Under the pieces are notes generated by a model. It was not told where the DNA came from, did no database searches, and saw only the letters and a program-made list of their open reading frames with translations. From an uncultured Candidatus Saccharibacteria bacterium (GTDB lineage: Bacteria > Patescibacteriota > Minisyncoccia > Phycocordibacterales > UBA9973), in assembly GCA_964544225.1 (NCBI GenBank), contig CAZIZK010000004.1, forward strand, positions 883-64,882: 64,000 nucleotides of DNA. The letters are read 5' to 3'. A program made the position numbers and the translations under genes. Shown one piece after another: positions 6,794 through 37,363 of the stretch (its first letter is position 1; each line of letters begins with the position of its first letter).

Positions 6794-8044
6794 ATGACAA
6801 CAGATCATGAACACGATGACCACGGCCACGGAAGTGGGACGACATCAAACAGCTTTAAAAGAGATACTTATGATATCTTTATCATAGTATTAATCTTCGG
6901 TATTTCAATACTTATGGTTTTATTTGGCAACTTTGCCTTACAAATCAGCGGTATTGGATTCTTTATTATCTCGGGCATATGTTATGCACGAGATTTCGTA
7001 CAGGTGCCTAACCACCCACCATACCTATTCCTAATCACACGATTAGGAAAAAAAATGTGGAAGGAAAAAGATGGCAGGTTAGTACCTGCTTATCTAGGTG
7101 AAGGTCTAGGCAAACTTCGACTCAAAGGTATCCTTGAAAGTGGTATTTTAATTAGTACCAAAAAAGAGGATATTGATTTTGACTCTCAAAAGTTAATGAC
7201 ACCAGATGACGGTGAGGTAAATGTTTCCTTCTCTCTTTCTTATAAAGTCGACAAGGATAACTTGGCGAACTTTATCAATATCGGGGAACAGAAAGGTTTC
7301 CGTGATATGATCCAACAAATCAAAGATGAGAAGCTCCGTACTTGGAGTGGAAATGCTCACGAAGGCCCCCAAACATGGGAAGAGTTAAAAGAGTCCGGTG
7401 ACATTGCTATTGCTATTTTAGTAAAAGGTATCTGTGGTGATTCTATGGGTCGTGTACATACAGAAATTCCAACTTCGGAATTAATCATGTATAAGACGGG
7501 TAGGATTCCATCAAACCCAAAAATGCGTGAGAAGTGGGGTGACGGTAGAACTGAAGGCGATTATGAATCTGCTGAAAAATGGCAAGGGCTTTTAACAAAA
7601 GTACATGCCCTTCCTGAAACAGAACAGGACGCTTTATGGAAAGCTGTAGACGAAAGGATTGAACTCATTAAAAAGATCCGCGGTGGAAGTGGTTCATGGC
7701 CTATTCCCCACATGGGAGTATTACTAACCAGAGCAAATCTGGGTGAAATGCTTCCTGTGATGGAAAACAAAGTAGTTCAAGCTTCTCTTAAACTAAAAGA
7801 AGAAGAACGTGAACGTCAAGCCGAGAACTATGAGATTCAAACAGATCTTAATAAAGCAGCAGCTTTGCAAAAGAAAATCAAAGATACATCTGGTGAAGAT
7901 GTGTCCATTGATGCTTGTATGAACCAAATCATGAAATGGAAGATGATCCGCGAGGGCCATGGATACGTTTATGATGGTTCCATGGGTTCTATTGCGGGTT
8001 TTGCTGACATGTTCAGTTCTATTATGAAAGGAGCCAAGTCATGA
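6794..8044 (+). CDS. membrane protein with N-terminal His/Asp-rich tail, 2 TM helices, SPFH/band-7-like domain and C-terminal coiled coil (tentative)
   Basis: MTTDHEHDDHGHGSG... then two hydrophobic helices. ITRLGKKMWKEKDGRLVPAYLGEGL...VNVSFSLSYKVDKDNLANF resembles SPFH beta/alpha core. EEERERQAENYEIQTDLNKAAALQKK coiled coil. The SPFH call is recollection, not a search result. Confidence 0.3.
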   Translation: MTTDHEHDDHGHGSGTTSNSFKRDTYDIFIIVLIFGISILMVLFGNFALQISGIGFFIISGICYARDFVQVPNHPPYLFLITRLGKKMWKEKDGRLVPAYLGEGLGKLRLKGILESGILISTKKEDIDFDSQKLMTPDDGEVNVSFSLSYKVDKDNLANFINIGEQKGFRDMIQQIKDEKLRTWSGNAHEGPQTWEELKESGDIAIAILVKGICGDSMGRVHTEIPTSELIMYKTGRIPSNPKMREKWGDGRTEGDYESAEKWQGLLTKVHALPETEQDALWKAVDERIELIKKIRGGSGSWPIPHMGVLLTRANLGEMLPVMENKVVQASLKLKEEERERQAENYEIQTDLNKAAALQKKIKDTSGEDVSIDACMNQIMKWKMIREGHGYVYDGSMGSIAGFADMFSSIMKGAKS

Positions 8045-8496
8045 GTGGCGGTCACGACGATCATGGGCATGATGATCATGCAGCACCAGCATCTACAGCA
8101 AGTGCTACACCTACTCTTGGTGGAACACCGAAGTGGATTGGTTGGATTATCGCAGTAGCTGTTATACTCCTTTTACTGGTACTTCTTTTTACTTGGAAAC
8201 CTTGGAATAATTCTGAATCCGAGTCAAAAAAAGAAGATTCAAAAAAGGAACAAGTGTTAAAAAGAAAAGTGGAATCTATCAGCATAGATCCTCTTGGAGA
8301 AAGAACATTTGATGTCCCTTTTGGTTGGAATTATCACATAGAAAGTGGTGATTACAATTACGAGGACAACCTCACTGATAGTGGCCTAGACGGAACTTCA
8401 GAAAACAAACGTGGACAATCTGTAAAGTGGTTTAAACTACAGAACAGAACATCTAACGTGTTGGAGGTTACAATCATTTGGAATCAACAATTCTAG
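8041..8496 (+). CDS. small membrane protein with His/Asp-rich N-terminus, translationally coupled (ATGA overlap) to the upstream gene
   Basis: MSGGHDDHGHDDHAAP..., one TM (WIGWIIAVAVILLLLVLLF), Lys/Glu-rich linker, beta-rich C-terminal domain. Start overlaps upstream stop (ATGA at 8041-8044). Confidence 0.5.
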   Translation: MSGGHDDHGHDDHAAPASTASATPTLGGTPKWIGWIIAVAVILLLLVLLFTWKPWNNSESESKKEDSKKEQVLKRKVESISIDPLGERTFDVPFGWNYHIESGDYNYEDNLTDSGLDGTSENKRGQSVKWFKLQNRTSNVLEVTIIWNQQF

Positions 8497-8555
8497 CTCT
8501 TTCGAACCATACCAATTATCAGTTTGGTATAGGTGGTAAACAAATTACTGATAGC

Positions 8556-8588
8556 AAAAAGGCGCCCCGTATGGAGCGCCTTTTTTTA
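8556..8588. terminator. bidirectional rho-independent terminator
   Basis: aaaaaGGCGCcccgtatggaGCGCCttttttt between convergent genes (8496 end, 8599 end). Confidence 0.7.
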
Positions 8589-8598
8589 TACCTGCATA

Positions 8599-8916
8599 TT
8601 ATTTATTGATCTGTATCTGTCCTGTGTCGTTTATGTTTATCCTCTTCTCGCCTACTGTGTTGAGTATTATTCGCATAATACCGAACACTGCAATCATGAT
8701 AAACAATCCGACAACACCCCACATCATATGGCTCTTGCTAGTCTTACGAATTTCTTCACTATCGGGGTTCATAAGGTACTGCACTATACCGTATAGGAAT
8801 ATTACCAGCGCCAATGCAAACAGCAGGAATATAATAGGGTTTATTATTACCCTCTCGATACTGGACATAAGAGTTCCAATACTAGCCTCTGCTTGTGGTA
8901 CAAAACCAATATTCAT
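8599..8916 (-). CDS. TrbC/VirB2-like (T4SS-pilin-like) small membrane protein, paralog 1
   Basis: Two hydrophobic helices flanking a short charged loop: ...LVIFLYGIVQYLMNPDSEEIRKTSKSHMMWGVVGLFIMIAVFGIM. Same module as the five upstream paralogs. Confidence 0.5.
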   Translation of the reverse strand: MNIGFVPQAEASIGTLMSSIERVIINPIIFLLFALALVIFLYGIVQYLMNPDSEEIRKTSKSHMMWGVVGLFIMIAVFGIMRIILNTVGEKRININDTGQIQINK

Positions 8917-8921
8917 TATCT

Positions 8922-9284
8922 TTAGCAGTATATACCTGCAGCTGGGTTAGGGATACAAGGAATCTGTGATGGGTCAAGGCGTGTAGCACCAACACCAAAT
9001 GTGTTAGTTACCAAGTTCACGATACCCCAGAAAGCGATGATAACGAACAAACCGATAAGGCCCTGGATTATCTTGCCACGAGCACCCTTCTTTGCTTCTT
9101 CGTCTGATGATACAGTGTACTGTATAACACCCCAGATAAAGTAAACCACAGCAAGAGTTATAAGAACTGGAATGATGTAGTTTAGTAATGTCTGGATTTG
9201 CAATATAACACTACGTGCGTCTGCAGCAAATGCAAGGAACGGTGTAAATGCCAAAACAGAACCAAATGAAATAACTTTTTTCAT
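8922..9284 (-). CDS. TrbC/VirB2-like pilin paralog 2 (signal peptide + pilin module + Cys-containing tail)
   Basis: MKKVISFGSVLAFTPFLAFAADA signal. ...AVVYFIWGVIQYTVSSDEEAKKGARGKIIQGLIGLFVIIAFWGIV. Confidence 0.55.
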   Translation of the reverse strand: MKKVISFGSVLAFTPFLAFAADARSVILQIQTLLNYIIPVLITLAVVYFIWGVIQYTVSSDEEAKKGARGKIIQGLIGLFVIIAFWGIVNLVTNTFGVGATRLDPSQIPCIPNPAAGIYC

Positions 9285-9371
9285 ATTTATAAATTTAAAA
9301 CTTAATAATAAACGCGACCTAATAATAATATTGATTCTTTCTGCAAATGCAGATAAAATTTTACCCTCTTA

Positions 9372-9695
9372 TTATACCATATAACCTGGTATGAAAGACA
9401 ATATAGAGAGCTGTGGAATAAAGGTATTCAGGCCAAATGTAGCTGCCAGTATCTTCACTATACCCCACACTGCCACCATGAAGAATAGTGATATAAGTCC
9501 CCACATTACAAAGGTTTTACCCTTCTTGCGGGCCTCCTCATTGGTCGGGTTCAGTAGTGTCTGAACTATACCCCATATAAATGCTGCTACCGCAAGGGCA
9601 AACAGCATCGGTACTATATAGCCGACGAGTGAACAGCTAATAAAGTTGATTATTCCATGCAAGGCACTGAAGCTATTTACGGCGCAATTAGGCAT
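9372..9695 (-). CDS. TrbC/VirB2-like pilin paralog 3
   Basis: ...AVAAFIWGIVQTLLNPTNEEARKKGKTFVMWGLISLFFMVAVWGIVKILAATFGL. Shares a 44-bp identical DNA block with paralog 4. Confidence 0.55.
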   Translation of the reverse strand: MPNCAVNSFSALHGIINFISCSLVGYIVPMLFALAVAAFIWGIVQTLLNPTNEEARKKGKTFVMWGLISLFFMVAVWGIVKILAATFGLNTFIPQLSILSFIPGYMV

Positions 9696-9741
9696 TTTAG
9701 AAATTTATTTTAAAATATTAATAATACAATTATATCACAAC

Positions 9742-10299
9742 TTATTGCGACAATGGTGGCAGATATGTGTCCAGGCCAAAAGTGCTAGTAAATATCTTCA
9801 CTATCCCCCATATAGATGTGATCACTACTAGTGCTATAAGGCCCCACATTATAAATTCTTTACCCTTCTTGCGGGCCTCCTCATTGGTCGGGTTCAGTAG
9901 TGTCTGTATTACTCCCCACATAAATGATACTATAGCAAGCGTTACAATAGCTGGTACTATGAATCCTGTGATAGTACATGTCACAAGGCTCACCACCTCG
10001 TTTACATTGCTCGATTTTAGGTTCGAACATAGTGGCATCTTTGCTACACTCAATGACTGCTGGCCTGGTTGCAATGTACCTGTACCATTAGGTGTGCCAT
10101 CCGCATTTAGAAGTGCAGTCCCATTTGCTTGCCCATCGGCATTTATAGTTCCATTCTTTTGAACCTGAGTTGCTGTACCACTGCGTATAGTCGATGGACC
10201 AGGAAGTATCAGGGCCTGTGCATCATACACAGGCAATACACAAGACCCTACAACTAATACGAGGGCAAGTGCTATAGAAAGTTTTTTGAAAGTTTTCAT
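9742..10299 (-). CDS. TrbC/VirB2-like pilin paralog 4 with signal peptide and Gly/Asn/Thr-rich repeat region
   Basis: MKTFKKLSIALALVLVVGSCV signal. NGTINADGQANGTALLNADGTPNGTG repeats. ...FMWGVIQTLLNPTNEEARKKGKEFIMWGLIALVVITSIWGIVKIF. Confidence 0.55.
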   Translation of the reverse strand: MKTFKKLSIALALVLVVGSCVLPVYDAQALILPGPSTIRSGTATQVQKNGTINADGQANGTALLNADGTPNGTGTLQPGQQSLSVAKMPLCSNLKSSNVNEVVSLVTCTITGFIVPAIVTLAIVSFMWGVIQTLLNPTNEEARKKGKEFIMWGLIALVVITSIWGIVKIFTSTFGLDTYLPPLSQ

Positions 10300-10300
10300 A

Positions 10301-10777
10301 TTATGCTGTGCGAGTTATCTCATCGACAGTACCTTTTATAGCATTGGCTATTACGAATGAACCTAGTAATAGTGCAGCCCCGATGAGTGTGTACATGAAC
10401 GCCTTCTTTGCTTTAGATATCGCCTCGGCATTACCCTGAGCCTTCACAAATAGGAATCCAGAGTAGATAATAGCAAGTACCACAATAGGCACACCTACAG
10501 TCAATACAATATTGAGTATAGCTTCAATAAATGCTGGAATGCTGTCGATACCACCTTTTAGAGGATTGTTGATCTTTGCATCAATAGATACACCATTACT
10601 TGTACCTGTTGTATTGCCACCAGAAGTCCCTGTTGTATTGCCACCAGAAGTCCCTGTTGTATGATTATTCCCTAATACAACAAACGGCATAGCTATTGCA
10701 AATACAATAGCAAATACAGATACGCATGAAGCGAGTTTATTTATAATAAAGTATTTCTTACCAGTGTTGATTTTCAT
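10301..10777 (-). CDS. TrbC/VirB2-like pilin paralog 5 with tandem TTGTSGGN repeats
   Basis: N-terminal TM, HTTGTSGGNTTGTSGGNTTGTSNG encoded by a 24-bp tandem DNA repeat. C-terminal two-helix module ...GVPIVVLAIIYSGFLFVKAQGNAEAISKAKKAFMYTLIGAALLLG. Confidence 0.5.
   Translation of the reverse strand: MKINTGKKYFIINKLASCVSVFAIVFAIAMPFVVLGNNHTTGTSGGNTTGTSGGNTTGTSNGVSIDAKINNPLKGGIDSIPAFIEAILNIVLTVGVPIVVLAIIYSGFLFVKAQGNAEAISKAKKAFMYTLIGAALLLGSFVIANAIKGTVDEITRTA
10605..10668. repeat. 24-bp tandem direct repeat (2.5 copies) inside pilin paralog 5
   Basis: cctgttgtattgccaccagaagtc repeated back-to-back, encoding GGNTTGTS units on the minus strand. Confidence 0.8.
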
Positions 10778-10812
10778 ATTATATATTGTACCTTATGCCC
10801 TAATAATTACAA

Positions 10813-12522
10813 CTAACCCAACAGGTCCATACCATTGAAGCCGAGGGTGGTTAGGATGGTCTTTATTATTAGCCATGCTGCTAACGCTATTATATAACCC
10901 ATAATCATGTTGCCTAGCATATGCTTTGCTTTTGAAGTCTTCTCCGAGCTACCACCAGATGTAAGGTACAAGAACCCAGCGTACACAAGCACGATAGCTG
11001 CCAATGGTGTAGCAAAGTATATAAGCATAAAGTCAATAATATTGTTCACCAACTCGATCAATTTATTAAAATCACAAGGGTTTGCAAAGTTGTCACTGAC
11101 AGTCTCTCCTTTGCTATTTACATAACTATTTAATCTACCAGTAACATTACAATCAGGAACAATACCACCCTTTGGTTTTGGTAGCGTTAGGTTCGCCCCA
11201 CTACCAGAACCGGTATTAGGTGCAGGTGTTGGGGTCACAGCACCTGCATCACGGATAGTTATCTTATCATTTGCAAATATTTTAAAATCTTCATTATTTA
11301 ATATATTTATTGTATAAGCACCTGGCGCAAAATCATTTGGTATATATACCTGCAGTTTCGTATCATTTACTATATCCCAATTCACCTCTGCTGGACCAAC
11401 AAAAACTTTCTTTACTGTATCCTTTGTAAACCCTGCTCCGTTAATATAGAAAGACACATCACCTCTTGCGCTCTTTGTAATATCACTCGGGTCAATAGAG
11501 TTAATAGTCATATTAGCTATCGTAATCTTCTTTGGTGATGCATACATTTTTCCATCTATATCTTCGATAGTTACGTCATATTCACCATTCTTGAAGTCTT
11601 TTGGTACTTTTACTGTTATCTCGGTTGGACTAACTAATGTATATGACACTATTATGTCACCGATAAATAAATTTTTTATCTTGCCAACCACAAACCCAAG
11701 ACCCTTTATAGTAATATTTGTATCCTTCAGTGGGTTCAGTGGAGTGACAGATTGTATGATCATATCCACAACACTTATCTCATCTTTCGCATAAATATCA
11801 AACAATCCATCTACCGATGTAATATGCAATGCGTAACTACCAGGCTTGATAACTAGTGGTATTTTGGCCTCTATTTGTTTATCGTTCAGTATGGTAAATG
11901 GTACCCCCACAGTATATAGGTATACATTCTTTACATTGTCTTTGGTAAAGCCAGATCCATTGATAATAAACTTACCACCCAGCTCCACCATGCTCGGAGC
12001 ACTTTCTATAGAAAAAGGTTTGTCATAAGTAAACAACTTAAATTTATCAGATTCAAAATAAAGTTTCTTTGTGACAGAACCCGTAATAAAAACTTTGACC
12101 AAGTTGCCTGATACATCTGGATCCGGAAAAGCTTTATAATAATCCTTCTTGTCTATATAACTTGGCAATTCTAAAACTAGGCTTGTTGCATTTGGAGTGT
12201 TTGTTGTAATACCTACAGAATTCTGCATCCAAACTTTCTTGCCTTCAGAATCATAAACAATAACATCAATACTCGTGTCTGTTGTACCGTTAGGTAATGT
12301 AAACTTACTAGAAGCATTGCTACCAGAAAAAGTAACTTCTACACCTACCGACATTTTATTATCTGTGGTTATTTTTGATTGATTTTTTACAACAACAGTA
12401 CCCGTTGCCCCGCTATACAGTATCCCATCGGCACGAACCATGAACCCGACAACAGAAACTATCGCAAGCGCAGATAGGAAGCTAACTATTCGAATACTGA
12501 AGATTTTCTTTAAAGTTTGCAT
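10813..12522 (-). CDS. large surface protein: signal peptide + repeated Ig-like (IPT/TIG-type) beta domains + Pro/Thr/Gly linker + C-terminal TrbC/VirB2-like pilin module
   Basis: Repeated ...ITIKGLGFVVGKIKN..., INGSGFTKDNVKNV, INGAGFTKDTVKKVFVGP segments. Linker AVTPTPAPNTGSGSGANLTLPKPKGG. C-terminal ...AAIVLVYAGFLYLTSGGSSEKTSKAKHMLGNMIMGYIIALAAWLIIK matches the paralog module. Confidence 0.5.
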   Translation of the reverse strand: MQTLKKIFSIRIVSFLSALAIVSVVGFMVRADGILYSGATGTVVVKNQSKITTDNKMSVGVEVTFSGSNASSKFTLPNGTTDTSIDVIVYDSEGKKVWMQNSVGITTNTPNATSLVLELPSYIDKKDYYKAFPDPDVSGNLVKVFITGSVTKKLYFESDKFKLFTYDKPFSIESAPSMVELGGKFIINGSGFTKDNVKNVYLYTVGVPFTILNDKQIEAKIPLVIKPGSYALHITSVDGLFDIYAKDEISVVDMIIQSVTPLNPLKDTNITIKGLGFVVGKIKNLFIGDIIVSYTLVSPTEITVKVPKDFKNGEYDVTIEDIDGKMYASPKKITIANMTINSIDPSDITKSARGDVSFYINGAGFTKDTVKKVFVGPAEVNWDIVNDTKLQVYIPNDFAPGAYTINILNNEDFKIFANDKITIRDAGAVTPTPAPNTGSGSGANLTLPKPKGGIVPDCNVTGRLNSYVNSKGETVSDNFANPCDFNKLIELVNNIIDFMLIYFATPLAAIVLVYAGFLYLTSGGSSEKTSKAKHMLGNMIMGYIIALAAWLIIKTILTTLGFNGMDLLG

Positions 12523-12523
12523 A

Positions 12524-13825
12524 TTATTTACCTAACAATATTTCTAATTGACCTTGGGCTTTTGATATTGCATCACTCATAGATAACTTGTTCGATAGGA
12601 CATTTTGTATTAACTCACCAAATATAGAGTTAGTAAGTCTTGCGTCTGGATCCAGGAATGATCGGGTAACAATAGCCGAATTATAAAATGTACTTAGGTA
12701 TGGGTCAGCAGGCTTCGCAGACAGTAGTGCACGTGTTGCAGGTGGTAGTGATAGTGCGTTGGCTACAGGCTGTGCATTTATTCCAGATGACATGAGTCCT
12801 GCTACTCCAAATGCAGCTGTTGCATTTGTGGATTTATTGTTTACAGCCAGGGCGTATATATTGCCATAAGTCCTCTTTAGATTAGAGTTCTTTGTTTGGA
12901 ATATGTCGTGCACGTCAAAGCTCAGGTTCGGATTGATAGATTCGATACCGAACAATTCAGATGCAAATCCTAGGTAGAAGGCAGATCCCCCACCAGTAAA
13001 GAAATCTTTGGAATTCAGTAACCCCCTGTTCCATGAATACGATCCCGATGTTGGGTCAGAAAAGTCGGTATAGTATGACAATACTTGCTCAGTCGGGCGC
13101 ACAGGTGAAGTACTGACACTTACCAGAGTCGGAACAACTTTATCACCGGATCGTATGGTGATAGGTGTACCACTTTGCATAAGTAGTGTAGCCAGTATCC
13201 CCTTTGCATTGTTGATATTGTCATATGATCCGAGTGCTATCATGCTCTGACTGAGAGTTCCGTCTACCTTCTTGATAGTTAAAGATTTGTTTAGGTCAGA
13301 CAACTCATCCCAGAATGTTGGGACTTGGGCAATACCGGCATTGGAAAGTAAGTTCTTGTTGTAGTACAGGACCATAGGGTCGATAACGACAGGCATAGCT
13401 ATCACACCCAGATTCCCTAGGTATATATCTGCCCCATCTATAAATGTGTCACGAAATGCCTTCTCTGGGTAACTTGCGTATGGCATTTGATATATAAAGT
13501 TCTTGTTCTTTAGTATCATATCGGGTGTTATAAAGAACAAGTCTGGTCCTGTACCTGAGGCAAATGCTGTTACCAATTCCTCCTGATAATTTTCAGGAGA
13601 CTTCTTCATATAAGTTACTGTCAGGTTCTTGTTGGTAGAGTTCATGTCGTCGAAAACCTTTTGGAACTCAGAACTATTGAAAGTTCCCCAGACTACCACT
13701 TTGCCCTGTGGAGTATTGGCAGTGTTACTGGACTTACCAATAGGTAATATGCCCGAGAATATGAGTACAGCAAAAACAAAGAATGCTAGAAATATAGATA
13801 GAAGAATTGTTTGAAAGTTATTCAT
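12524..13825 (-). CDS. membrane-anchored extracellular solute-binding-protein-like protein (ABC SBP family 1 fold)
   Basis: N-terminal signal anchor, VVVWGTF, QEELVTAFASGTGPDLFFI, VIAMPVVIDPMVLYYNKNLL, VPTFWDEL. Stops 2 bp before the next gene. Confidence 0.5.
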   Translation of the reverse strand: MNNFQTILLSIFLAFFVFAVLIFSGILPIGKSSNTANTPQGKVVVWGTFNSSEFQKVFDDMNSTNKNLTVTYMKKSPENYQEELVTAFASGTGPDLFFITPDMILKNKNFIYQMPYASYPEKAFRDTFIDGADIYLGNLGVIAMPVVIDPMVLYYNKNLLSNAGIAQVPTFWDELSDLNKSLTIKKVDGTLSQSMIALGSYDNINNAKGILATLLMQSGTPITIRSGDKVVPTLVSVSTSPVRPTEQVLSYYTDFSDPTSGSYSWNRGLLNSKDFFTGGGSAFYLGFASELFGIESINPNLSFDVHDIFQTKNSNLKRTYGNIYALAVNNKSTNATAAFGVAGLMSSGINAQPVANALSLPPATRALLSAKPADPYLSTFYNSAIVTRSFLDPDARLTNSIFGELIQNVLSNKLSMSDAISKAQGQLEILLGK

Positions 13826-13828
13826 AAA

Positions 13829-14353
13829 TTATTTGTATAACAATATTATACCATAATGATGCGCGCCTGCATCCACATCGTTCACATATTCATAGCCTTT
13901 TGACTTGAATAGGTCTGATACATAGTCCTTTGTAACGATAGACTTCTTCGCAGGACCCATATTGTTGTACGATTCGGACCAGTCCACTACACATACCTTG
14001 CCACCCTTCTTCAATATTCTTGTAATTTCTTTTATAAAAATATCTTTGTGTTCCACTTGGAAAAGTATATTACAAGCAAGGACCATATCGATACTATGGT
14101 CAGCGAGTTTGGTTCCACCATATACCTCTACATCACCTCGGATGTATTCAATATTTGTAAGTTTCCTTTTGTGAGCTTCGTCTTTGATACGGCCTAGCAT
14201 GCCGTCTTGAACCTCGACAGCATATACATGGCCACTGTGTACACGCGGTGCGATAGCTGTCGTATACAGGCCTATACCTGCGCCCAAATCTGCTACCTTC
14301 ATATGAGGTTCGAGCGGTAACTGCGCAACGATACGTTGTGGGTCAATAAACAT
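13829..14353 (-). CDS. class I SAM-dependent methyltransferase
   Basis: VADLGAGIGLYT motif I, 174 aa; 4-bp gap to the SBP-like gene. Confidence 0.7.
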   Translation of the reverse strand: MFIDPQRIVAQLPLEPHMKVADLGAGIGLYTTAIAPRVHSGHVYAVEVQDGMLGRIKDEAHKRKLTNIEYIRGDVEVYGGTKLADHSIDMVLACNILFQVEHKDIFIKEITRILKKGGKVCVVDWSESYNNMGPAKKSIVTKDYVSDLFKSKGYEYVNDVDAGAHHYGIILLYK

Positions 14354-14375
14354 ATTTTAATTATAACATTTAAAA

Positions 14376-14412
14376 ATAAAAAATGTAGTATCGAGTACTA
14401 CATTTTTTATTT
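14376..14412. terminator. bidirectional terminator between gyrA and methyltransferase
   Basis: aaaaATGTAGTAtcgagTACTACATtttttatttt perfect 12-bp stem. Confidence 0.65.
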
Positions 14413-14419
14413 TATTTTT

Positions 14420-16885
14420 TTATAAACAAGTAATTGATGCGATAGAGTCACCAGGGCGCAACTTCATGATAGTTACACCTTGAGTCTGGCGACCAGATGT
14501 AGGGATAGATTTCAGATCAACACGAATGACCTGACCCTTTTGTGATACGGCAATGATCTCGTTCTCGTCACCTACTATCTTTGCCACGATCAATTTACCA
14601 GTCTTTGGTGTTACCTTTGCAGTCTTGATACCTGAGCCTCCACGCTTCTGGACTTTGTATTCCTTTATACCAGTCTTCTTACCGAGGCCTTGTGATCCGA
14701 GTATTAGGAATGCCTTTTCATTGTCGCCTTTTGCTATCCTGTCTACACCTATAACTGTATCAGCTTTTGACAATTTGATAGCGCGTACTCCACCTGCAGA
14801 GCGACCCATCTCGCGAACGTCGTTCTCCTTGAAGCGGATAGATTGTCCAGACGCTGTTGCAAGCATTACATCGTCACCCTTTGTTATTGGTAGTACTGCT
14901 TGGAGTTCGTCACCTTTGTCGAGCTTGATAGCTATCAATCCACTTCGGCGTACGTCCTTGAATGATTCGGCGGCCACCTTCTTTGCTACACCTTGGGCTG
15001 TTACAAGCATTAGGCTCTCTACACTCTTCTTTGTCTCTTTATCTATTGGCAATATTGAAGTCACCTTTTCATCACCTTCCAGCGATATAAAGTTCATGAT
15101 AGATTTACCTTTTGTAGCACGCTTGCCTTCGGGGATCTCATACATCTTGATCTGGTACGCCTTGCCACGGTTTGTAAAGAATAGTAGGTCACTATGAGTA
15201 TTGGCATTTAGAAGCATTGTTACAAAGTCCTCTTCTTTTGGTTCGATATCTATCACACCTACACCACCACGCTTCTGAGTGCGGTATTCACTTGGGTCTG
15301 TACGCTTTACGTATCCACCGGCTGTGTATACAAGTACTGATTCCTTCTCGGGTATTAGGTCCTCTTCATTGATAGCTTTTACACCACCCTTTACCACACG
15401 AGTACGACGATCGTCACCATACTTCTCTTTTATTTCGCCCAATTCTTTTGAGATAACTTTCATCATTAATTTTGCACTTGCAAGCAATGCTTCGAGTTCC
15501 TTTATCAATTCTTGCTTCTCCTTTAGTTCAAGCTCTACGTTCTTACGTTCCAAACCTGCCAACTTTTGCAAACGCATTTCCAATATTGCAGTTGCTTGCA
15601 AGTCAGAGAACTTGAACTCTTTCATCAAGTTGAGTTTTGCACCAGCTGTGTCCTTTGAAGCACGAATAACCGAGATAACTTTATCAATATGGTCCAGTGC
15701 CTTCTTCAAACCTAGCAATATATGTTCACGGTCCTTCGCCTTCTGCAAGTCGAACTGTGTTCGGCGCTTTACCACCTCTTGCCTGTGGCCGATGAATTCG
15801 GAAAGCATGCTCTTTAGTGAAAGTGTCTGTGGTACTCCCTCTACAAGTGCCACTATGTTGAAGTGGAATGTAGATTCAAGCTGTGTATGTTTGTATATAT
15901 AGTTCAGTACCTTTTGTGGGTGAACACCACTCTTCAGATCAATAGCGATGCGAATATCCTTTGCAGATTCATCACGCAAGCCTTTTACACCTTCGAGCTT
16001 CTTCTCTTGCACAAGTGCTGCAATAGATTCGATAAGAGTAGATTTATTTACACGGTATGGGATAGATGTGATTATGATCTGGAACAATCCGGACTTTAGC
16101 TCGACTATCTCGGCCTCACCACGTGTTACCACACCTCCACGGCCTGTAGAGTATGCATGCACTAGATCTGCCTGACCATATAATACTCCACCCATTGGGA
16201 AGTCTGGGCCCTTTATGTATTGCATTAGGTCCTCGGTAGTTGCGTCTTTGTTGTCTATTAGGTGGATGGTAGCGTCTATAACTTCAGTCAGGTTGTGTGG
16301 CGGAATATTGGTTGCCATACCTACGGCAATACCAAGAGTTCCATTGAGTAATAGACTTGGAACAGCTGTTGGTAATACCGCTGGTTCTTTGCGAGTTTGG
16401 TCATAGTTGGCACGGAAGTCTACTGTCTCCTTTTCCAAATCACGCAATATCTCGGCTGATATACGAGCCATCTTTGCCTCGGTATAACGCATAGCCGCTG
16501 CACCATCACCGTCGATAGATCCAAAGTTACCTTGGCCAAATATTAGTGGGTAACGATAAGAAAAGTCTTGGGCCATACCTACCATAGCATCGTACACAGA
16601 AGCGTCACCGTGCGGGTGGTATTTACCGAGCACGTCTCCAACTACTGCCGCACTCTTACGGAAACGGCCACCATGTGTCAGACCCATCTCGTGCATGGCG
16701 TACAATATACGTCGGTGCACAGGCTTCAAACCATCGCGTACATCTGGCAATGCACGTGAAGTGATCACACTCATCGCATAGTCTAGATACGCCTCTTTCA
16801 TTTCTGTCGAGATATTTACTGATATTACATCTTGCCTTGGGATATTTTCCTCTGGTTCTTGAATAACTTGTTTTGTTTTTGCCAT
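14420..16885 (-). CDS. gyrA: DNA gyrase subunit A
   Basis: [58 protein letters not shown]-terminal beta-pinwheel repeats; 821 aa. Confidence 0.95.
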
Positions 16886-33086: not shown

Positions 33087-33206
33087 AATAATAGGTTTTA
33101 TTTGTTTCTTTCACATTACCTTATTTGAAGAATAAGTCAAATTGAACATATACGAACCTATTTACAAATAGGTATAAATGTATTATAATAAAAGAAAAAA
33201 ATAATA

Positions 33207-33611
33207 ATGACACGTAATTTTATACCTAAAAACCGTGGGATCGTTGTTTTAAAACGACACCTACCAATGATAACAATACCTGCTATGATAGGAATTGTTA
33301 TTGTATTATTGTGGAGATTTATAATATTTCCTTTGGATTGGAATTTTACAAATCTTTCTGACCCAGTGCTATTTATTGCCCTACCTCTTGCTTGCTTAAT
33401 ATATGTGCTTTTTGCAACTATCGCAATTAGTTCTGTATTTCAGCAATACAAAGAGGTTTCAAAAAGTGTTATATTGTTGTTGGAATTGTCAACCGGGTCT
33501 TTTGTGCAAGATGCAAGAAACGAAATAAACGCTGCACATGAGAACAGCATGATGGTGAGGGTGATTTTTTTGTTCATTTTTATTTTTGTTAGTGTTAATT
33601 TTATCTTTTAG
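33207..33611 (+). CDS. hypothetical small membrane protein (uncertain)
   Basis: 134 aa, 3 hydrophobic segments, AT-rich codon usage; overlaps the next minus-strand gene. Confidence 0.25.
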   Translation: MTRNFIPKNRGIVVLKRHLPMITIPAMIGIVIVLLWRFIIFPLDWNFTNLSDPVLFIALPLACLIYVLFATIAISSVFQQYKEVSKSVILLLELSTGSFVQDARNEINAAHENSMMVRVIFLFIFIFVSVNFIF

Positions 33612-34542
33612 GGTTGCTTTGTCTGTTTTCGCTGATGGTAACAACCCCCCGATCGGTTTCTTTTTTGGTTCGTACCAAAGAACCTTCTTGATCATATTCA
33701 TACAAGGTTGCGTAATTGTTTTCATCAAGAACAGCAGTCAGTTTAAGGCTCACAGGATCATATATATAGCTTTTCATACTCCCGTTTACTGGGTATATGC
33801 GAATGTCATCAAAATAAGCTGTTCCACTTCCACTAAGCAATTCCACAGTAATATCGGTGGCACCAGAAGGAATTGTAAATTCTTCGTATATGCGCTGCCA
33901 GCCTTCAATAATCTTACCTTTACCATAGTAGGGCGCAGGGTCGGTAACTGGGCCAGTGTAATCTATTTGTATTGTTGCATTATAATACCCCGTCGCTGTA
34001 TCAGGTGCACTTGCCTCTTTTATCCATGCACTGATGGCATAGGTAGCACCAATATCAGGGACAAACCCACCTATACAATTTTCGCAATCAAATGTAGGCA
34101 TAAAACACGGGGCAGGTGCTTCAATTTCCTCGGTTTGGATGCATAGGGCTCTTGCCGTACTTATATAATCATCTGCATACAAACTTATTGTTATAGTGTG
34201 CATAAGCCCGTCAGCAGGTAAATTATTTAAACGGAATGTAAACGTAGCAATAATGGTGTGACCTATATATTCACTTAAGTCCACAGGCATGGTATCCCAG
34301 TCCATGAATTTAATGCCACTTTCAGGTTCTACATATTGGAATTTAGAACTTCCATAAATTGGATCTTTATTGTCTGCATATACACGGTACCGGTGTGTGA
34401 GGTACTTCCTGTTACTGACGTTCCATGTGGTCTGTAAGCGCAGAGCATCAGAAATAATTAGATTTACTCGACCTAACGAGACACAAAGACATACGGCTAT
34501 AAAAGAACCTTTAGGTGGAATTATTAAAGCTGCAATTAACAC
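33601..34542 (-). CDS. beta-sandwich (carbohydrate-binding-like) domain protein ending in a YD (RHS-type) repeat; possibly a truncated remnant
   Basis: GKGKIIEGWQRIYEEFTIPSGATDITVELLSGSGTAYFDDIRIYP then SYIYDPVSLKLTAVLDENNYATLYEYDQEGSLVRTKKETDRG (Y-x-YD-x-x-G-x-L). No signal peptide. The N-terminal 60 codons overlap a plus-strand ORF, so the true start is probably internal (MDWDTMP...). Confidence 0.35.
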   Translation of the reverse strand: MLIAALIIPPKGSFIAVCLCVSLGRVNLIISDALRLQTTWNVSNRKYLTHRYRVYADNKDPIYGSSKFQYVEPESGIKFMDWDTMPVDLSEYIGHTIIATFTFRLNNLPADGLMHTITISLYADDYISTARALCIQTEEIEAPAPCFMPTFDCENCIGGFVPDIGATYAISAWIKEASAPDTATGYYNATIQIDYTGPVTDPAPYYGKGKIIEGWQRIYEEFTIPSGATDITVELLSGSGTAYFDDIRIYPVNGSMKSYIYDPVSLKLTAVLDENNYATLYEYDQEGSLVRTKKETDRGVVTISENRQSNPKR

Positions 34543-34671
34543 ATTTAAACAGCTGAATGAAAATAATATAACACCTGGGAAATCTTTTGATTGGTGGGAG
34601 TTACTTGGAGAAACAGCAAAAGGGGCTGCGATAGGAGGAGGTGCAGGACTTGTGTTGGGTGCAGTTGAGGA

Positions 34672-35988
34672 TTATGAAAATTCACAGCAAAATCCTATAA
34701 ATACTGATGCTTTTTTATTTGCAGTAATAAATGATATAAGGTTAGATAAAAATGACCCTGAATTTAAATGGTTGGATAATAAAGCACACCGATTACCCTT
34801 ACTTCGTAAAGAATAAATTGAATAATCTCCTTTATAAAACTGTAGGTCTTGACTGCTCCTCTTATATTTTTCAATTAAGTTAGAATCTTCAATGTATCTT
34901 TGTTCTTGGGTAAAAAATTCATAAAAATGTGTCCTACTACTGTTTATATCTTTTCTTTTAAAAAGATTATTTACGACGTATTCATCTTTTAAATCAGATG
35001 GCTTATATTTTTTATTTGTAAGAAATTTATCCTTAATGTTACTTACTAAATTAGGATCTTGAATTGTTTCAATTTGGTAAAGGATCATTCGGCCAGCTAC
35101 AGGCATGTGGTTAAATGCTGGATTTGTTCCAGCATAAATTCCTTTTAAATATTTATCTGTTTGAACTTTTCTTTTACTTATGTCAAATACAAATAAAAAC
35201 TCATCTTTCTTATTTTGTGGTGGATTAAAGTATAGTGAAATAGAGTCTTGATTATTTCTTTTAATTTTACCATCATAATAATTATTTTCAGATTTATTGG
35301 AATTTTCAATTCCCGTTGTGCGCATGAATACATGTTTGTCGGTATTAATTAATAGGTAAAGCCGAGAAATGCTACCACTTTTAGCTTCTTCTTTTGGTCT
35401 AATAAAATACCCTTCATATATGCCATAAAAATGTGGTGGTATTTCGAGATTATTGATAGGCTGATTATCGGTGTTATTTTCTTGATTATTTGGACTCTTC
35501 TGAGCACTAGTTTCCTTTTGATTATTTAGTTCTAATTGTGCACTTTTTAGAGGATCTTCTAGAGAATTTATAAAATCTCTAAAAGCCTTCATAATATCTT
35601 TAACTTGGCAAATTTCACTAAAAATAATATATGCATTGACATAATGTTCTGGTATTGTATGATTGTTTCTGTTATTATATGGATTGCCTTTTTTGGAACG
35701 AATTGGTTTGATATTGTCGGAATATTGTTTGTGGTTGAAGACTATTTTGTCAGTTTGCTTGTCAAATCTTAAGTCCTGATCTAAATAGGCTTTTACATTT
35801 GTATCTTCTTGCATTTTTTTACTAAGAGAATTTGAGCCATAATTTCCGTAAATGTCTGTATCCTTATAATCTGTTGCTAAAAGTCCAGTTATTTTTTCCC
35901 ATTTTTTAATTACGGCAATATGTATAAATTCAGCAACTTTGGGATGAAGTTTTATCTGTAAACTTTTTAACTTTTTACTTGCACTCAT
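34672..35988 (-). CDS. hypothetical Asn/Lys-rich protein (orphan, AT-rich)
   Basis: 438 aa intact ORF, strongly AT-skewed codons, no recognisable motif. Confidence 0.4.
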   Translation of the reverse strand: MSASKKLKSLQIKLHPKVAEFIHIAVIKKWEKITGLLATDYKDTDIYGNYGSNSLSKKMQEDTNVKAYLDQDLRFDKQTDKIVFNHKQYSDNIKPIRSKKGNPYNNRNNHTIPEHYVNAYIIFSEICQVKDIMKAFRDFINSLEDPLKSAQLELNNQKETSAQKSPNNQENNTDNQPINNLEIPPHFYGIYEGYFIRPKEEAKSGSISRLYLLINTDKHVFMRTTGIENSNKSENNYYDGKIKRNNQDSISLYFNPPQNKKDEFLFVFDISKRKVQTDKYLKGIYAGTNPAFNHMPVAGRMILYQIETIQDPNLVSNIKDKFLTNKKYKPSDLKDEYVVNNLFKRKDINSSRTHFYEFFTQEQRYIEDSNLIEKYKRSSQDLQFYKGDYSIYSLRSKGNRCALLSNHLNSGSFLSNLISFITANKKASVFIGFCCEFS

Positions 35989-37363
35989 ATTGTACTAAAT
36001 AAATCTTTAAAATATCCTCAATATTTTTTAAAGATATTTTGAGGATTAATACTGCGAGATTAAGTAATCTTTAAGAAATAAAATAAGGAGAAGAACTTTT
36101 GTGAATAAGTTGTATATAATTGTTATTTGAGGTAAATCTTCTATAGCTTTGTATCATGCGCAATAACATTCATATATTAAGAGTTTTGCAAATCTTCAAA
36201 ATTGGATGTGATCAAATAATATTTTCAAAGTTATCCGTGAGTTTTTTTATTCATGCTACTGGCTTTCAAAGGTACACAGATTATGTATCGTTCATTAATT
36301 TCGATTTTGCCTTAACATTAGGCAGATTTACAAATAATTCTGGCAGATCTCCACCATAAAAAATGGGCATAGACTTGGTTAAAAGGCTACACCCACTTAA
36401 AATTTTTAATTATCCCAGTAAGGATTATTGATTTTAAGAACAAATGTTATAAATGTTCATCTAATATCATAGCATTTTTGGATTTATTTTTACAAGTTTT
36501 TTGCCCAAAAGTCGCGTATTGTTAGCTATAATGCAACAGTGTGGCGGGTTTGTCAATTTTATTTCCCAGAAAAATTGATGTGATTCTGTACTACTTATTA
36601 ACAAGTTAATAGATACGACATGACAAACATTTACATCAAATTCTTGTTCGCTTTTGTAGCTATCTTTCCCACGGCAAGTCACCTGGAGGTAATTTGCAAG
36701 AGTTTCTCGGAAAACATTATTGAACTATGTGCTCTTTCATTACTTTTTATTGTAATTCTAATATTTATAATATTCTATCAAGTTGGATATTATAAATGTG
36801 GTAAGGACTTAAAAATGAGATATCATATAATTCACTGGTTTATTTTCCTTTTATCAATATTTTCTTTAAAGTATATTTGTAAAAACCAATAATGAAGATA
36901 AATAAGATTTATTACTTTCAGGAATGTCTTAACATAATTAATAGAATTTCTCACACAATAGCGGCGGTTTGAAAGATATAGCATCTGTTTTACCGAGGGT
37001 TTGTGCTTCTGATTTTCCTTGCAAATGGTTAGATGCAATGTGCCCATCCAACTCTGGGATGGAGAAGGATGGGATTTGATATTCTTTAAGTTGGTTTTTC
37101 ATGTTATTTTCTGGTTTTAAGTTTGTTTAAATAGTTACGGCAGCCTTCCATTTGTAAATCGTCCATATTGGGGTGAATCCAAGATAATTCATCAATAATC
37201 ACTGAAATTATTAACGGATTACGGAGTGATTTTCGACCACCAAAGGCCGAAATCAGGCGTTTTAAATTTGAAATAAACGGGGTAATCTTTTTGTTTTTCA
37301 TGGCATTTGTTTTAGGTTAACAAATGCCCCAAACGAGTCTAGATAGCCTAGTAACTCAGGGTA

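What the first reader, a model, noticed from the sequence alone, without database searches (positions are those of the whole stretch)
8599..14353. Minus-strand run of six paralogous TrbC/VirB2-like (T4SS-pilin-like) genes, one fused to a 500-aa Ig-like adhesin, led by a solute-binding-protein-like gene and a methyltransferase, with no other type IV secretion components nearby
Six consecutive minus-strand genes sit at 8599-8916, 8922-9284, 9372-9695, 9742-10299, 10301-10777 and 10813-12522. All end in the same 55-60 aa module: hydrophobic helix, then a charged loop (NPTNEEARKKGK or a variant), then a second hydrophobic helix ending WGIVKI..TFGL. This is the two-helix hairpin typical of VirB2/TrbC conjugative pilins. 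The assignment is from memory of that family, not from a search.
N-terminal parts vary:
- bare module (paralogs 1 and 3);
- signal peptide plus module (paralog 2);
- Gly/Asn/Thr repeat stalks (paralogs 4 and 5);
- in the largest protein, repeated IPT/TIG-like beta domains plus a Pro/Thr linker.
Gene spacing is 2-6 bp from the methyltransferase (14353) through the SBP-like gene to the adhesin-pilin. The paralogs are co-oriented and bracketed by strong terminators at 14376-14412 and 8556-8588. No VirB4/VirD4 ATPase, VirB6/8/9/10 or relaxase is present in 64 kb.
Two hypotheses follow: a lineage-specific surface filament or adhesion organelle, possibly assembled by a non-T4SS route, or phase- or antigen-variable surface proteins.
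Basis: partly seen in the sequence, partly recalled or inferred. Interest (0 to 1): 0.7.

Follow-up and report, generated by a model that had tools for sequence, protein, structure and literature searches.

The report
SBP-led VirB2-like pilin gene array
An ultra-small "CPR" bacterium carries a widely conserved gene set for one membrane-anchored sugar-binding-type protein and five kinds of conjugative-pilin-like proteins, one fused to a long adhesin-like stalk; it is a new, differently wired version of a pilin array already shown to be essential in related bacteria.

Summary
Six minus-strand ORFs (8599-12522) all pass Pfam's threshold for PF18895 T4SS_pilin. They follow an MBP-fold solute-binding-like protein and a small SAM methyltransferase, directly downstream of gyrA. 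No T4SS gene lies in the 64 kb.

The array is not lineage-specific and shows no sign of antigenic variation. The order gyrA-MTase-SBP-five pilins recurs in about 45 Paceibacteria/Nomurabacteria species genomes, with strict positional orthology (five classes, P1-P5). The window has a sixth gene because P3 is duplicated. Distant SBP homologues in other CPR lineages (7 of 7 examined) are also followed by 4-10 pilin genes, so SBP plus array is a conserved module.

Large variable ectodomains sit on the N-terminus of P1 (TIG here) or the C-terminus of P5. Conserved extended -10 boxes suggest three units: MTase; SBP-P1-P2-P3; and P4-P5 with a structured leader.

Three relatives with this operon have VirB4 elsewhere in the genome. 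VirB2-like arrays in Patescibacteria are published (2023, 2025). I did not find the SBP coupling, the five classes or the ectodomain fusions in the papers I could search.

Verdict: new variant of a known kind, of moderate interest.

The parts
14376..14412 (-). gyrA terminator hairpin; marks the upstream boundary of the cluster
   Evidence: Folds at -16.3 kcal/mol, z -7.9, followed by a U run.
14360..14368 (-). Extended -10 box TGTTATAAT, 7 nt before the methyltransferase ATG (probably a leaderless transcript)
   Evidence: The same box lies 6-8 nt before the start codon in 33 of 38 related loci.
13829..14353 (-). Cytoplasmic class I SAM methyltransferase (174 aa)
   Evidence: Methyltransf_11 at E 1.5e-16. 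Best solved relatives are 3dh0 and plant phosphoethanolamine N-methyltransferases, a generic match. It sits next to the SBP in about 50 loci but is absent from the distant SBP-array loci.
13845..13853 (-). Extended -10 box TGGTATAAT inside the methyltransferase 3' end, 20 nt before the SBP start
   Evidence: An equivalent box is present in 34 of 39 loci, mostly 8 nt before the SBP start codon.
12524..13825 (-). Membrane-anchored MBP-fold solute-binding-like protein: N-terminal TM helix 2-23, flexible linker 25-37, two-lobe SBP domain
   Evidence: SBP_bac_1 at 5e-14 and SBP_bac_8 at 1.5e-13. AF2 model pLDDT 87, pTM 0.84. Foldseek matches MalE at TM 0.7-0.78 with 17% identity. The TM helix is nearly invariant among homologues of 55-85% identity. 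No ABC permease or ATPase is nearby.
10813..12522 (-). P1: signal/anchor, beta-rich N-domain, three TIG/Ig-like domains, Pro/Thr linker, Cys loop, C-terminal pilin hairpin (569 aa)
   Evidence: PF18895 at 28.0 bits and TrbC at E 1e-3. Structure model. Fold matches to tandem IPT/Ig surface proteins. Class P1 by position and HMM.
10301..10777 (-). P2: N-terminal anchor, GNTTGTS repeat spacer, pilin module (158 aa)
   Evidence: PF18895 at 27.3 bits. Class P2.
9742..10299 (-). P3a: signal peptide, Asn/Gly/Thr-rich spacer, pilin module (185 aa)
   Evidence: PF18895 at 33.2 bits. Class P3.
9729..9737 (-). Extended -10 box TGATATAAT upstream of P3b
   Evidence: Specific to the duplicated copy; not assessed in other loci.
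9372..9695 (-). P3b: bare pilin module, a duplicate of P3 (107 aa)
   Evidence: PF18895 at 33.5 bits. 53% aa identity to P3a, and 77% nt identity over 184 nt. The duplication is shared with the closest relative L003.
9371..9379 (-). Extended -10 box TGGTATAAT for P4-P5
   Evidence: Present upstream of P4 in 33 of 39 loci, typically about 90 nt before the start codon.
9285..9370 (-). P4 5' leader: hairpin UCUGCAUUUGCAGA, then AUUAUUAUUAGGUCG (a variant of a leader motif conserved in relatives)
   Evidence: Covariation in relatives is modest. The covariance model hits only this position in 27 loci across 1 Mb, and not the window's variant. No Rfam match.
8922..9284 (-). P4: signal peptide (AFA/AD), pilin module, C-terminal tail with a Cys pair (120 aa); candidate major subunit
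   Evidence: PF18895 at 40.8 bits, the best of the six. Near-constant length of 114-147 aa; signal segment in 36 of 39 orthologues; C-terminal Cys pair in 28 of 39. Has its own conserved promoter.
8599..8916 (-). P5: bare module without a signal peptide (105 aa). In other genomes this class carries a C-terminal extension of up to about 570 aa
   Evidence: PF18895 at 27.5 bits. Class P5. C-terminal extensions in orthologues.
8556..8588 (-). Bidirectional intrinsic terminator closing the array
   Evidence: Folds at -23.8 kcal/mol, z -5.6, flanked by A and U runs.

Best explanation
The locus is the Paceibacteria (Nomurabacteria-like) version of the Patescibacteria VirB2-like pilin array. It is reorganised as a stand-alone chromosomal module headed by a membrane-anchored MBP-fold protein.

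Shown:
- It encodes five ancient, positionally orthologous classes of PF18895 two-helix proteins (P1-P5; P3 is duplicated here).
- Each has a conserved hairpin and a basic inter-helix loop.
- Large, fast-changing extra domains occur only at the N-terminus of P1 or the C-terminus of P5.
- The SBP gene is linked to such arrays across CPR classes.
- Conserved promoter-like boxes precede the MTase, the SBP and P4.

Inferred from the known topology and biogenesis of VirB2/TraA pilins:
- The proteins insert into the cytoplasmic membrane with both termini outside and the loop inside.
- The chromosomal MPF-FATA-like T4SS encoded elsewhere (VirB4/VirB3/VirB6/TrsD) draws on them to build a surface filament or short stalk.
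- P4, which has its own promoter, a structured leader, a signal peptide and constant size, is the abundant structural subunit.
- SBP-P1-P2-P3, co-transcribed, form a low-abundance priming or tip set.
- The P1 TIG stalk (or, in other genomes, the P5 C-terminal domain) contacts the host cell.
- The SBP-like protein, held in the membrane by an almost invariant helix, works with the pilins. It may act as a ligand sensor/receptor or as an assembly factor handling a sugar- or glycerophospho-type ligand.
- The methyltransferase is probably a neighbour specific to this clade rather than a core part.
For: Family: all six pass the PF18895 threshold. Orthologues in RAAC4_OD1_1 and GW2011_GWD2_36_14 score E 1e-5 to 1e-11, with weak TrbC hits.

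Conservation:
- 54 loci were found with the SBP. About 45 keep the order gyrA-MTase-SBP-5 pilins.
- In about 95% of cases the best cross-genome hit of a pilin module lies at the same ordinal position.

Class-specific features:
- Signal/anchor segment in P1, P2 and P4 (36 of 39 each); rare in P3 and P5.
- Cys pair on the N-side of P1 (38 of 39) and the C-side of P4 (28 of 39).

Ectodomains:
- TIG, fn3 or unknown domains N-terminal in P1; unknown domains C-terminal in P5.
- Between 50%-identical orthologues, the P1 module is 75% identical while the ectodomains are 44-54%.
- In the exhaustive search, proteins carrying P1-type modules range from 85 to 700 aa.

SBP linkage independent of context: the Berkelbacteria locus L054 and six further homologues, at 27-46% identity to the L054 SBP, are all directly followed by 4-10 PF18895 genes, with different flanking genes.

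Transcription signals.

T4SS elsewhere in relatives: PMC12102498 Tables S1/S3.

Precedent:
- Six PF18895 pilins inside the essential T4SS cluster of Southlakia epibionticum (PMC10633639).
- PF18895 pilins among the most highly expressed unknown genes of cultured Paceibacteria-type cells (PMC10936435).
Against: - No T4SS gene lies within 64 kb, and in relatives the virB4 cluster has its own adjacent PF18895 gene. The gyrA-linked set is therefore not obviously needed as the pilin supply.
- No filament has been demonstrated for any PF18895 protein.
- A profile of the modules finds no solved VirB2/TraA chain, and the AF2 hairpin has low confidence (pLDDT ~50).
- Single polypeptides containing six tandem pilin modules exist (P0322, P0378, P0379). 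This is hard to reconcile with extraction of monomers into a helical pilus.
- The roles assigned to P4, P1-P3 and the SBP are inference only.
- The genome that contains this window was not available, so the presence of VirB4 in this organism is not shown.
Confidence: 0.55

Rival explanations
1. T4SS-independent membrane machine. The five hairpin classes assemble side by side into a fixed hetero-oligomeric ring or bundle in the cytoplasmic membrane. This complex receives a ligand from the orphan SBP, or signals with it. It would be a CPR-specific uptake or sensing device, with P1/P5 ectodomains as host-binding arms.
For: - The SBP is an orphan. No MalF/G-type permease or ABC ATPase lies beside it in the window or in six distant loci, yet it is always glued to the array.
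- Its TM helix is nearly invariant.
- The array is unlinked from virB4, which has its own pilin gene.
- The fixed number and order of classes suggest defined stoichiometry.
- Six modules fused in one 12-TM polypeptide exist.
- In other CPR clades UDP-glucose pyrophosphorylases of two unrelated families (NTP_transferase, UDPGP) sit at the same position upstream of the SBP.
Against: - The family is homologous to T4SS pilins, and in Saccharibacteria it sits inside the T4SS cluster.
- No known transporter is built from such hairpins.
- No energising component is linked.
- The separate strong promoter for P4 fits a polymerising major subunit better than a 1:1 complex.
Confidence: 0.25
2. Antigenic or phase variation: a tandem family of interchangeable surface proteins that diversify by duplication and recombination to evade or adapt to hosts.
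For: - Multiple paralogues with low mutual identity, as proposed for other Patescibacteria arrays by analogy with Bartonella and Anaplasma (PMC12102498).
- One recent-looking duplication of P3.
- Ectodomains differ between species.
Against: - Strict positional orthology across 39 genomes.
- No inverted repeats, cassettes or homopolymer tracts of the expected kind.
- The P3 duplicates are only 77% identical at the DNA level.
- A strain at 97% nt identity shows the same divergence in P1 as in housekeeping genes, and nearly all changes are synonymous.
Confidence: 0.03
3. Coincidental synteny: the SBP and the methyltransferase are ordinary metabolic genes that merely happen to lie next to a pilin array.
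For: - The MTase is absent from the distant SBP-array loci and has its own promoter box.
- Gene order is generally well conserved within this clade (gyrA is 87% identical on average).
Against: For the SBP:
- Adjacency survives complete change of the flanking genes, across SBP identities down to about 26%.
- The SBP promoter heads the P1-P3 genes, with gaps of 1-35 nt and no promoter box in between.
Confidence: 0.1

Closest known systems
Essential VirB2-like pilin array of the Southlakia epibionticum ML1 T4SS (SEML1_0014-0019; Wang et al. 2023, PMC10633639) and the 441 'VirB2 arrays' catalogued in Patescibacteria (Quinonero-Coronel et al. 2025, PMC12102498)
   Same: - Tandem sets of 2-11 PF18895 genes with low mutual identity, on the chromosome of a monoderm CPR bacterium without a relaxase context.
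- Six genes in both Se and this window.
   Different: - Here the array is not in the T4SS cluster. It sits downstream of gyrA, is headed by an MBP-fold membrane protein and has three promoter-like units.
- It consists of five positionally orthologous classes.
- P1 or P5 carry large ectodomains.
- In two relatives these arrays are absent from the paper's Table S3, although their proteins hit PF18895.
- 'Solute-binding' does not occur in that paper's main text.
VirB2/TrbC/TraA conjugative pilins of Gram-negative T4SS (Pfam PF04956)
   Same: - Small proteins with a two-helix hairpin and a basic loop.
- Signal-peptide-dependent membrane insertion in some members.
- Weak profile similarity (E 7e-5 to 1e-3).
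   Different: - Below the TrbC gathering score, and no sequence match to solved pilins.
- Monoderm host.
- Five classes rather than one pilin plus VirB5.
- Fusions to domains of 200-600 aa.
- No evidence of cyclisation or of a pilus.
Minor-pilin/pseudopilin sets of type IV pili, T2SS and Com pili (one major subunit plus four minor ones, with a tip adhesin such as PilY1)
   Same: - Works-like analogy only: one separately and strongly expressed subunit, plus a co-transcribed set of low-abundance paralogues, one carrying an adhesin.
- A fixed number of classes.
   Different: - Unrelated fold and signal: no class III prepilin leader and no PilD site.
- A different assembly ATPase family is expected.
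Cluster-B (MalE/UgpB-like) substrate-binding proteins of ABC importers
   Same: - Pfam SBP_bac_1/8 above threshold.
- Complete two-lobe MBP fold.
- Membrane-tethered, as in monoderms.
   Different: - No cognate permease or ATPase genes.
- Invariant TM helix.
- Always followed by PF18895 genes.
- The ligand is unknown.
Mycoplasma ICE Mbov_0395 pilin-like conjugal transfer protein (NCBIfam NF045849)
   Same: Best NCBIfam match for all six (E 9e-10 to 8e-3). It is a pilin-like protein of a monoderm MPF-FATA system.
   Different: All scores (15.9-38.1 bits) are below the family cut-off of 40, and there is no ICE context.

Membership tests
Pfam PF18895 T4SS_pilin (VirB2/TrbC-like superfamily) | Profile score at or above the curated gathering cut-off (26.6 bits) | tested here: met
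   27.5, 40.8, 33.5, 33.2, 27.3 and 28.0 bits for the six ORFs.
Pfam PF18895 T4SS_pilin (VirB2/TrbC-like superfamily) | Two hydrophobic helices joined by a short charged loop | tested here: met
   Hydropathy segments in all six. AF2 helices 485-521 and 526-559 in P1, at low pLDDT.
Pfam PF18895 T4SS_pilin (VirB2/TrbC-like superfamily) | Recognisable similarity to experimentally characterised VirB2/TrbC/TraA pilins | tested here: inconclusive
   PF04956 TrbC gives E 1e-3 in P1 and 7e-5 to 7e-4 in orthologues, all below its cut-off of 27.9 bits. The profile search against PDB chains finds only spurious TM matches.
Functional T4SS pilin | Encoded with, or dependent on, VirB4 and the other mating-pair-formation genes | tested here: not met
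   None in the 64-kb window. Three relatives have VirB4, and for two of them the cluster lies hundreds of genes away. Dependence itself cannot be tested here.
Functional T4SS pilin | Polymerises into an extracellular pilus (pilin-phospholipid helical assembly) | not testable with these tools
   Needs microscopy or biochemistry. The existence of six-module fusion proteins argues for caution.
Patescibacteria VirB2 array (as defined in PMC12102498) | Two to eleven PF18895/VirB2-like genes in tandem or separated by one gene, with low pairwise identity (mean 25%, maximum 54%) | tested here: met
   Six tandem genes with 19-53% pairwise identity.
Patescibacteria VirB2 array (as defined in PMC12102498) | Essential for epibiotic growth (shown for the Se ML1 array) | not testable with these tools
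   Requires genetics in a cultivated relative.
ABC-importer substrate-binding protein (SBP_bac_1, MalE/UgpB-like) | SBP profile above threshold and a two-lobe periplasmic-binding-protein fold | tested here: met
   53.4 and 51.6 bits. AF2 pLDDT 87. MalE TM-score 0.7-0.78.
ABC-importer substrate-binding protein (SBP_bac_1, MalE/UgpB-like) | Cognate permease and ATPase genes in the same locus | tested here: not met
   None in the window cluster. None within +/-8 kb in six distant loci; the only ABC genes seen are an ABC-2 exporter pair in L057.
Phase/antigenic-variation locus | Switching elements (invertible repeats, silent cassettes, slippery tracts) or hypervariability between close strains | tested here: not met

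The most novel reading that the evidence does not exclude
SBP plus five VirB2-like classes is a self-contained, CPR-wide envelope machine rather than a spare pilin depot for the T4SS.

The five paralogues would occupy fixed positions in a heteromeric layer. One speculative form is the five strands of a five-start conjugative-pilus-like helix. Another is a closed membrane ring, as the natural six-module fusion proteins suggest.

The invariant-helix SBP would dock onto this assembly to hand over or sense a host-derived sugar, glycolipid or glycerophospho ligand. That would make it a conduit by which lipid- and nucleotide-auxotrophic ultra-small bacteria take material from their hosts.
Probability: 0.2. 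Interest if true: 0.85.

Novelty: new variant of a known kind. Interest (0 to 1): 0.5.

Why it matters
Patescibacteria make up a large share of bacterial diversity and live attached to other cells. The only genetic study so far found the T4SS and its pilin array essential, but with unknown function.

This locus shows four things about a major class, Paceibacteria:
- The array is an autonomous, deeply conserved module.
- It has a fixed five-member composition.
- It has an obligatory MBP-fold partner.
- It has swappable host-facing domains.

These give concrete handles for experiments:
- a soluble SBP domain to screen for ligands;
- a candidate major subunit (P4) for antibodies or cryo-ET;
- candidate adhesins (P1/P5) that may determine host range. 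The 2025 survey reported finding no adhesins such as the MPF-FATA PrgB in its Patescibacteria dataset.

The locus also bears on whether PF18895 proteins form pili at all.

Tried and rejected
- Word-indexed homologue search with P1 found only two relatives. The exhaustive search was needed to see the family.
- The consensus terminator scan missed both flanking terminators. Folding confirmed them.
- A profile of the six modules against PDB sequences gave only GPCR and designed-helix noise, with no VirB2/TraA match.
- An Rfam scan at E<=1 over 8500-14500 gave nothing.
- The covariance model of the P4 leader does not hit the window's own variant.
- N-glycosylation idea: N-x-S/T sequons are about 4 times denser in the ectodomains than in cytoplasmic proteins, but exactly as expected from their composition (obs/exp 0.55-1.15). 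There is therefore no specific signal.
- P1-P5 class HMMs do not resolve the classes in distant CPR arrays, except partly in Berkelbacteria L054. The five-class scheme is established only for the Nomurabacteria-like clade.
- The methyltransferase's similarity to phosphoethanolamine and phospholipid N-methyltransferases is generic class I fold similarity, far below family cut-offs. I do not build on it.
- The near-invariance of the SBP N-terminus among the fetched loci is partly an artefact, because the genome scan used N-terminal peptide patterns. It is nevertheless also seen in the independently retrieved set.

Full report
OBSERVATION

The ORF list reproduces the eight minus-strand genes exactly. 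All six small-to-large ORFs between 8599 and 12522 score above the Pfam gathering threshold for PF18895 T4SS_pilin (27.3-40.8 bits against 26.6). The match covers the C-terminal 60-70 residues. The largest ORF also gives a sub-threshold TrbC/VirB2 hit (E 1e-3). NCBIfam's closest model is the Mycoplasma-ICE pilin-like protein NF045849, below its cut-off. Each protein has the two hydrophobic helices.

The 433-aa gene is SBP_bac_1/SBP_bac_8 and the 174-aa gene is a Methyltransf_11 enzyme. The flanking hairpins at 8556-8588 and 14376-14412 are strong terminators when folded. The window is ordinary chromosome: gyrA, infB, secA, dnaE, hisS, guaB, purA, purH, five tRNAs and RNase P RNA. No VirB4, VirD4 or VirB6-like gene was found among the 38 ORFs scanned.

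WHERE THE WINDOW COMES FROM, AND HOW CONSERVED THE LOCUS IS

A 99%-identical and a 50%-identical copy of the 569-aa protein exist in public assemblies. Both keep the order MTase-SBP-TIG-pilin. Scanning one genome per species with the SBP found 54 loci, almost all labelled Paceibacteria, Nomurabacteria or Parcubacteria.

I built an HMM from the six modules and searched these loci with it. About 45 loci show the same order: gyrA, ~175-aa MTase, ~435-aa SBP, then five pilin-module genes. Three sequences have six: the window, its closest relative L003, and L053.

In 39 genomes with exactly five, the best hit of a module in another genome lies at the same ordinal position in about 95% of comparisons. 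There are therefore five ancient classes, P1 to P5. The window has P1 (10813-12522), P2 (10301-10777), P3a and P3b (9742-10299 and 9372-9695, a duplication at 53% aa and 77% nt identity), P4 (8922-9284) and P5 (8599-8916).

Class features are stable:
- P1, P2 and P4 have an N-terminal signal or anchor segment. P3 and P5 usually do not.
- P1 has a Cys pair before the hairpin.
- P4 is nearly constant in length (~120 aa) and has a C-terminal Cys pair.

VARIABLE ECTODOMAINS

Long extensions occur only N-terminal to the P1 module or C-terminal to the P5 module. Among 39 genomes, 15 have a long P1 only, 11 a long P5 only, 2 have both and 11 have neither. In the VirB2 topology both ends are extracytoplasmic; this rests on established knowledge of VirB2/TraA, not on a test here.

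Domain content differs. TIG occurs here and in L037, fn3 in L019, and nothing recognisable elsewhere.

The AF2 model of the window's P1 has these parts:
- three confident Ig/TIG-like sandwiches (residues 170-425);
- a poorly defined beta-rich N-domain;
- a disordered Pro/Thr linker;
- a Cys-bounded loop;
- the helical hairpin.

Its solved-structure neighbours are beads-on-a-string surface proteins: Bacteroides SGBP-B, plexin IPT domains and the SbsB S-layer protein.

Between 50%-identical orthologues the module is 75% identical while the ectodomains are 44-54%. Against a strain at 97% nt identity, P1 diverges no faster than housekeeping genes, and almost all of its changes are synonymous. Together with the absence of switching repeats, this rules out phase or antigenic variation as the organising principle.

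The exhaustive library search shows that P1-type modules anchor very diverse proteins of 85-700 aa:
- some carry the module at the N-terminus followed by a long tail, one of which has an HExxH motif;
- three proteins consist of six tandem modules in one chain.

THE SBP IS PART OF THE MODULE

The SBP model is confident (pLDDT 87). It shows a TM helix, a flexible tether and a complete MBP-like two-lobe fold. It has only about 17% identity to MalE. The TM helix is the most conserved segment. The caveat is that the locus scan used N-terminal peptide patterns.

The decisive test used the Berkelbacteria locus L054, whose SBP is 26% identical to the window's. There the SBP is followed by five pilin genes in a different neighbourhood. 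Six further homologues, at 27-46% identity to that SBP and taken from long contigs, are every one directly followed by 4-10 PF18895 genes. None of these loci has an ABC importer permease or ATPase.

In those clades the gene upstream of the SBP is a UDP-glucose pyrophosphorylase. It is GalU-type in six loci and the unrelated UDPGP type in one. Glycosyltransferases also occur in or beside some arrays. The methyltransferase is confined to the Nomurabacteria-like clade.

TRANSCRIPTION SIGNALS

Four of the 16 TGnTATAAT boxes in the window lie on the coding strand of this 5.8-kb cluster. Each sits just upstream of a gene start: the MTase, the SBP, P3b and P4.

Across related loci the boxes are conserved at three places:
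- 6-8 nt before the MTase start codon (33 of 38 loci);
- mostly 8 nt before the SBP start codon (34 of 39 loci);
- about 90 nt before P4 (33 of 39 loci).

They are essentially absent before P1, P2, P3 and P5. The likely units are therefore MTase; SBP-P1-P2-P3; and P4-P5. This is inferred from sequence only.

The P3-P4 spacer is long (median 128 nt, against 7-25 nt for the other pilin-pilin gaps). In most relatives it holds a hairpin with a GUCG loop followed by AUUAUUAUAAG. Covariation is modest: 75% of cells are paired, against 67% in shuffles and at most 53% when the partners are slid. A covariance model hits only this position in 27 loci over 1 Mb. There is no Rfam match. The window has a variant form (hairpin, then AUUAUUAUUAGGUCG), which is unique in the 64 kb.

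RELATION TO KNOWN SYSTEMS

PF18895 arrays are known. Six such genes sit inside the essential T4SS cluster of Southlakia epibionticum (PMC10633639). A 2025 survey reports 441 VirB2 arrays of 2-11 genes in 383 Patescibacteria assemblies, with virB4 often near dnaA in Paceibacteria (PMC12102498).

That paper's tables list RAAC4_OD1_1, GW2011_GWD2_36_14 and GW2011_GWE2_34_25 as VirB4-positive, and all three carry the operon studied here. For the first two, a compact VirB3/VirB4/VirB2 (+VirB6) cluster lies far from the gyrA-linked array. The gyrA-linked arrays of those two genomes are not in Table S3, although their proteins hit PF18895 at E 1e-5 to 1e-11. [quoted passage not shown] PF18895 pilins are among the most highly expressed unknown genes in Paceibacteria-type enrichment cultures (PMC10936435). 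Literature searches combining VirB2 or pilin with solute- or substrate-binding proteins in CPR found nothing relevant.

INTERPRETATION

The best-supported reading (confidence about 0.55) has these elements:
- This is the Paceibacteria form of the Patescibacteria VirB2-like array.
- Its subunits are membrane-inserted hairpins that a distally encoded MPF-FATA-like T4SS uses to build a surface structure.
- P4 is the major subunit.
- SBP-P1-P2-P3 form a priming or tip set.
- P1 or P5 act as host-binding arms.

The main rival (about 0.25) is a T4SS-independent hetero-oligomeric membrane complex that works with the orphan SBP. Four findings favour it: the separate virB4-linked pilin, the universal SBP coupling, the invariant SBP helix and the six-module fusions.

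Antigenic variation is essentially excluded. Mere synteny is unlikely for the SBP and quite possible for the methyltransferase.

Membership in PF18895 is established. Membership in 'functional T4SS pilins' is not: genomic linkage was tested and not met, and polymerisation could not be tested.

VERDICT

Both 'no T4SS' and 'lineage-specific or antigen-variable' need revision. The feature is a new variant of a recently described kind. It has several features that I did not find in the papers I could search:
- the SBP coupling across CPR;
- the five positional classes;
- terminal ectodomain swapping;
- the three-promoter layout with a P4 leader motif.

Noticed in passing
window 9285-9379 (minus strand); equivalent P3-P4 spacers in L004-L051: There is a conserved extended -10 box and a ~90-nt leader upstream of P4. 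In relatives the leader holds a hairpin with a GUCG loop followed by AUUAUUAUAAG. The window has a diverged version. A covariance model hits only this position in 27 loci, and there is no Rfam family. It may be a cis-regulatory or stabilising RNA for the candidate major subunit.
   Followed up: partly
window 14360-14368 and 13845-13853; the same positions in ~34 related loci: TGnTATAAT boxes end only 6-8 nt before the start codons of the methyltransferase and, in most relatives, the SBP. This implies leaderless mRNAs. The SBP box lies inside the methyltransferase coding sequence.
   Followed up: partly
P0322, P0378, P0379 (library proteins): These are single polypeptides of 500-555 aa made of six tandem PF18895-like hairpin modules (12 predicted TM helices). 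They resemble a whole pilin array fused into one chain. Their genomic context could not be fetched.
   Followed up: no
P0269: This protein has a P1-type module, with its Cys loop, at the N-terminus, followed by a ~430-aa tail containing an HELEH (HExxH) motif. It may be a metallopeptidase displayed on a pilin anchor.
   Followed up: no
L054, L057-L062 (genes just upstream of the SBP at ~7000-8000): In other CPR clades the SBP-array module is preceded by a UDP-glucose pyrophosphorylase. It is GalU/NTP_transferase type in six loci and the unrelated UDPGP type in L061. The neighbourhood is often ComF-Hsp20, which also flanks the Se ML1 pilin array. GT-C or GT-2 glycosyltransferases and a convergent PilB-like T2SSE ATPase recur nearby.
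   Followed up: partly
window 6794-8044 (+) and 8041-8496 (+): An SPFH/Band-7-like 416-aa protein and an overlapping 151-aa membrane protein both begin with His/Asp-rich tracts (DHEHDDHGHG and GGHDDHGHDDH). The pair is convergent with the pilin array. The SPFH-like gene recurs downstream of the array in L003, L016, L042 and L047, together with the 151-aa gene in L003.
   Followed up: no
window ~33200-38700, next to tRNA-Asn at 38747-38821: This is a low-GC stretch (31-35%) of ORFs without Pfam matches. One 313-aa ORF (33601-34542) ends in a YD/Rhs-like motif, and a 438-aa ORF is Asn/Lys-rich. It may be an island inserted at the tRNA gene.
   Followed up: no
window 62388-63764 (-) and 41924-42847 (-): Two further predicted proteins contain fn3/purple-acid-phosphatase-N-like beta-sandwich domains, and nothing else is recognisable in them.
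   Followed up: no
window 10590-10650 (P2) and 10080-10160 (P3a): The Gly/Asn/Thr spacers contain three N-x-T sequons each. P2 has a 24-nt tandem repeat in its DNA. Sequon density in ectodomains is high but is explained by composition.
   Followed up: yes
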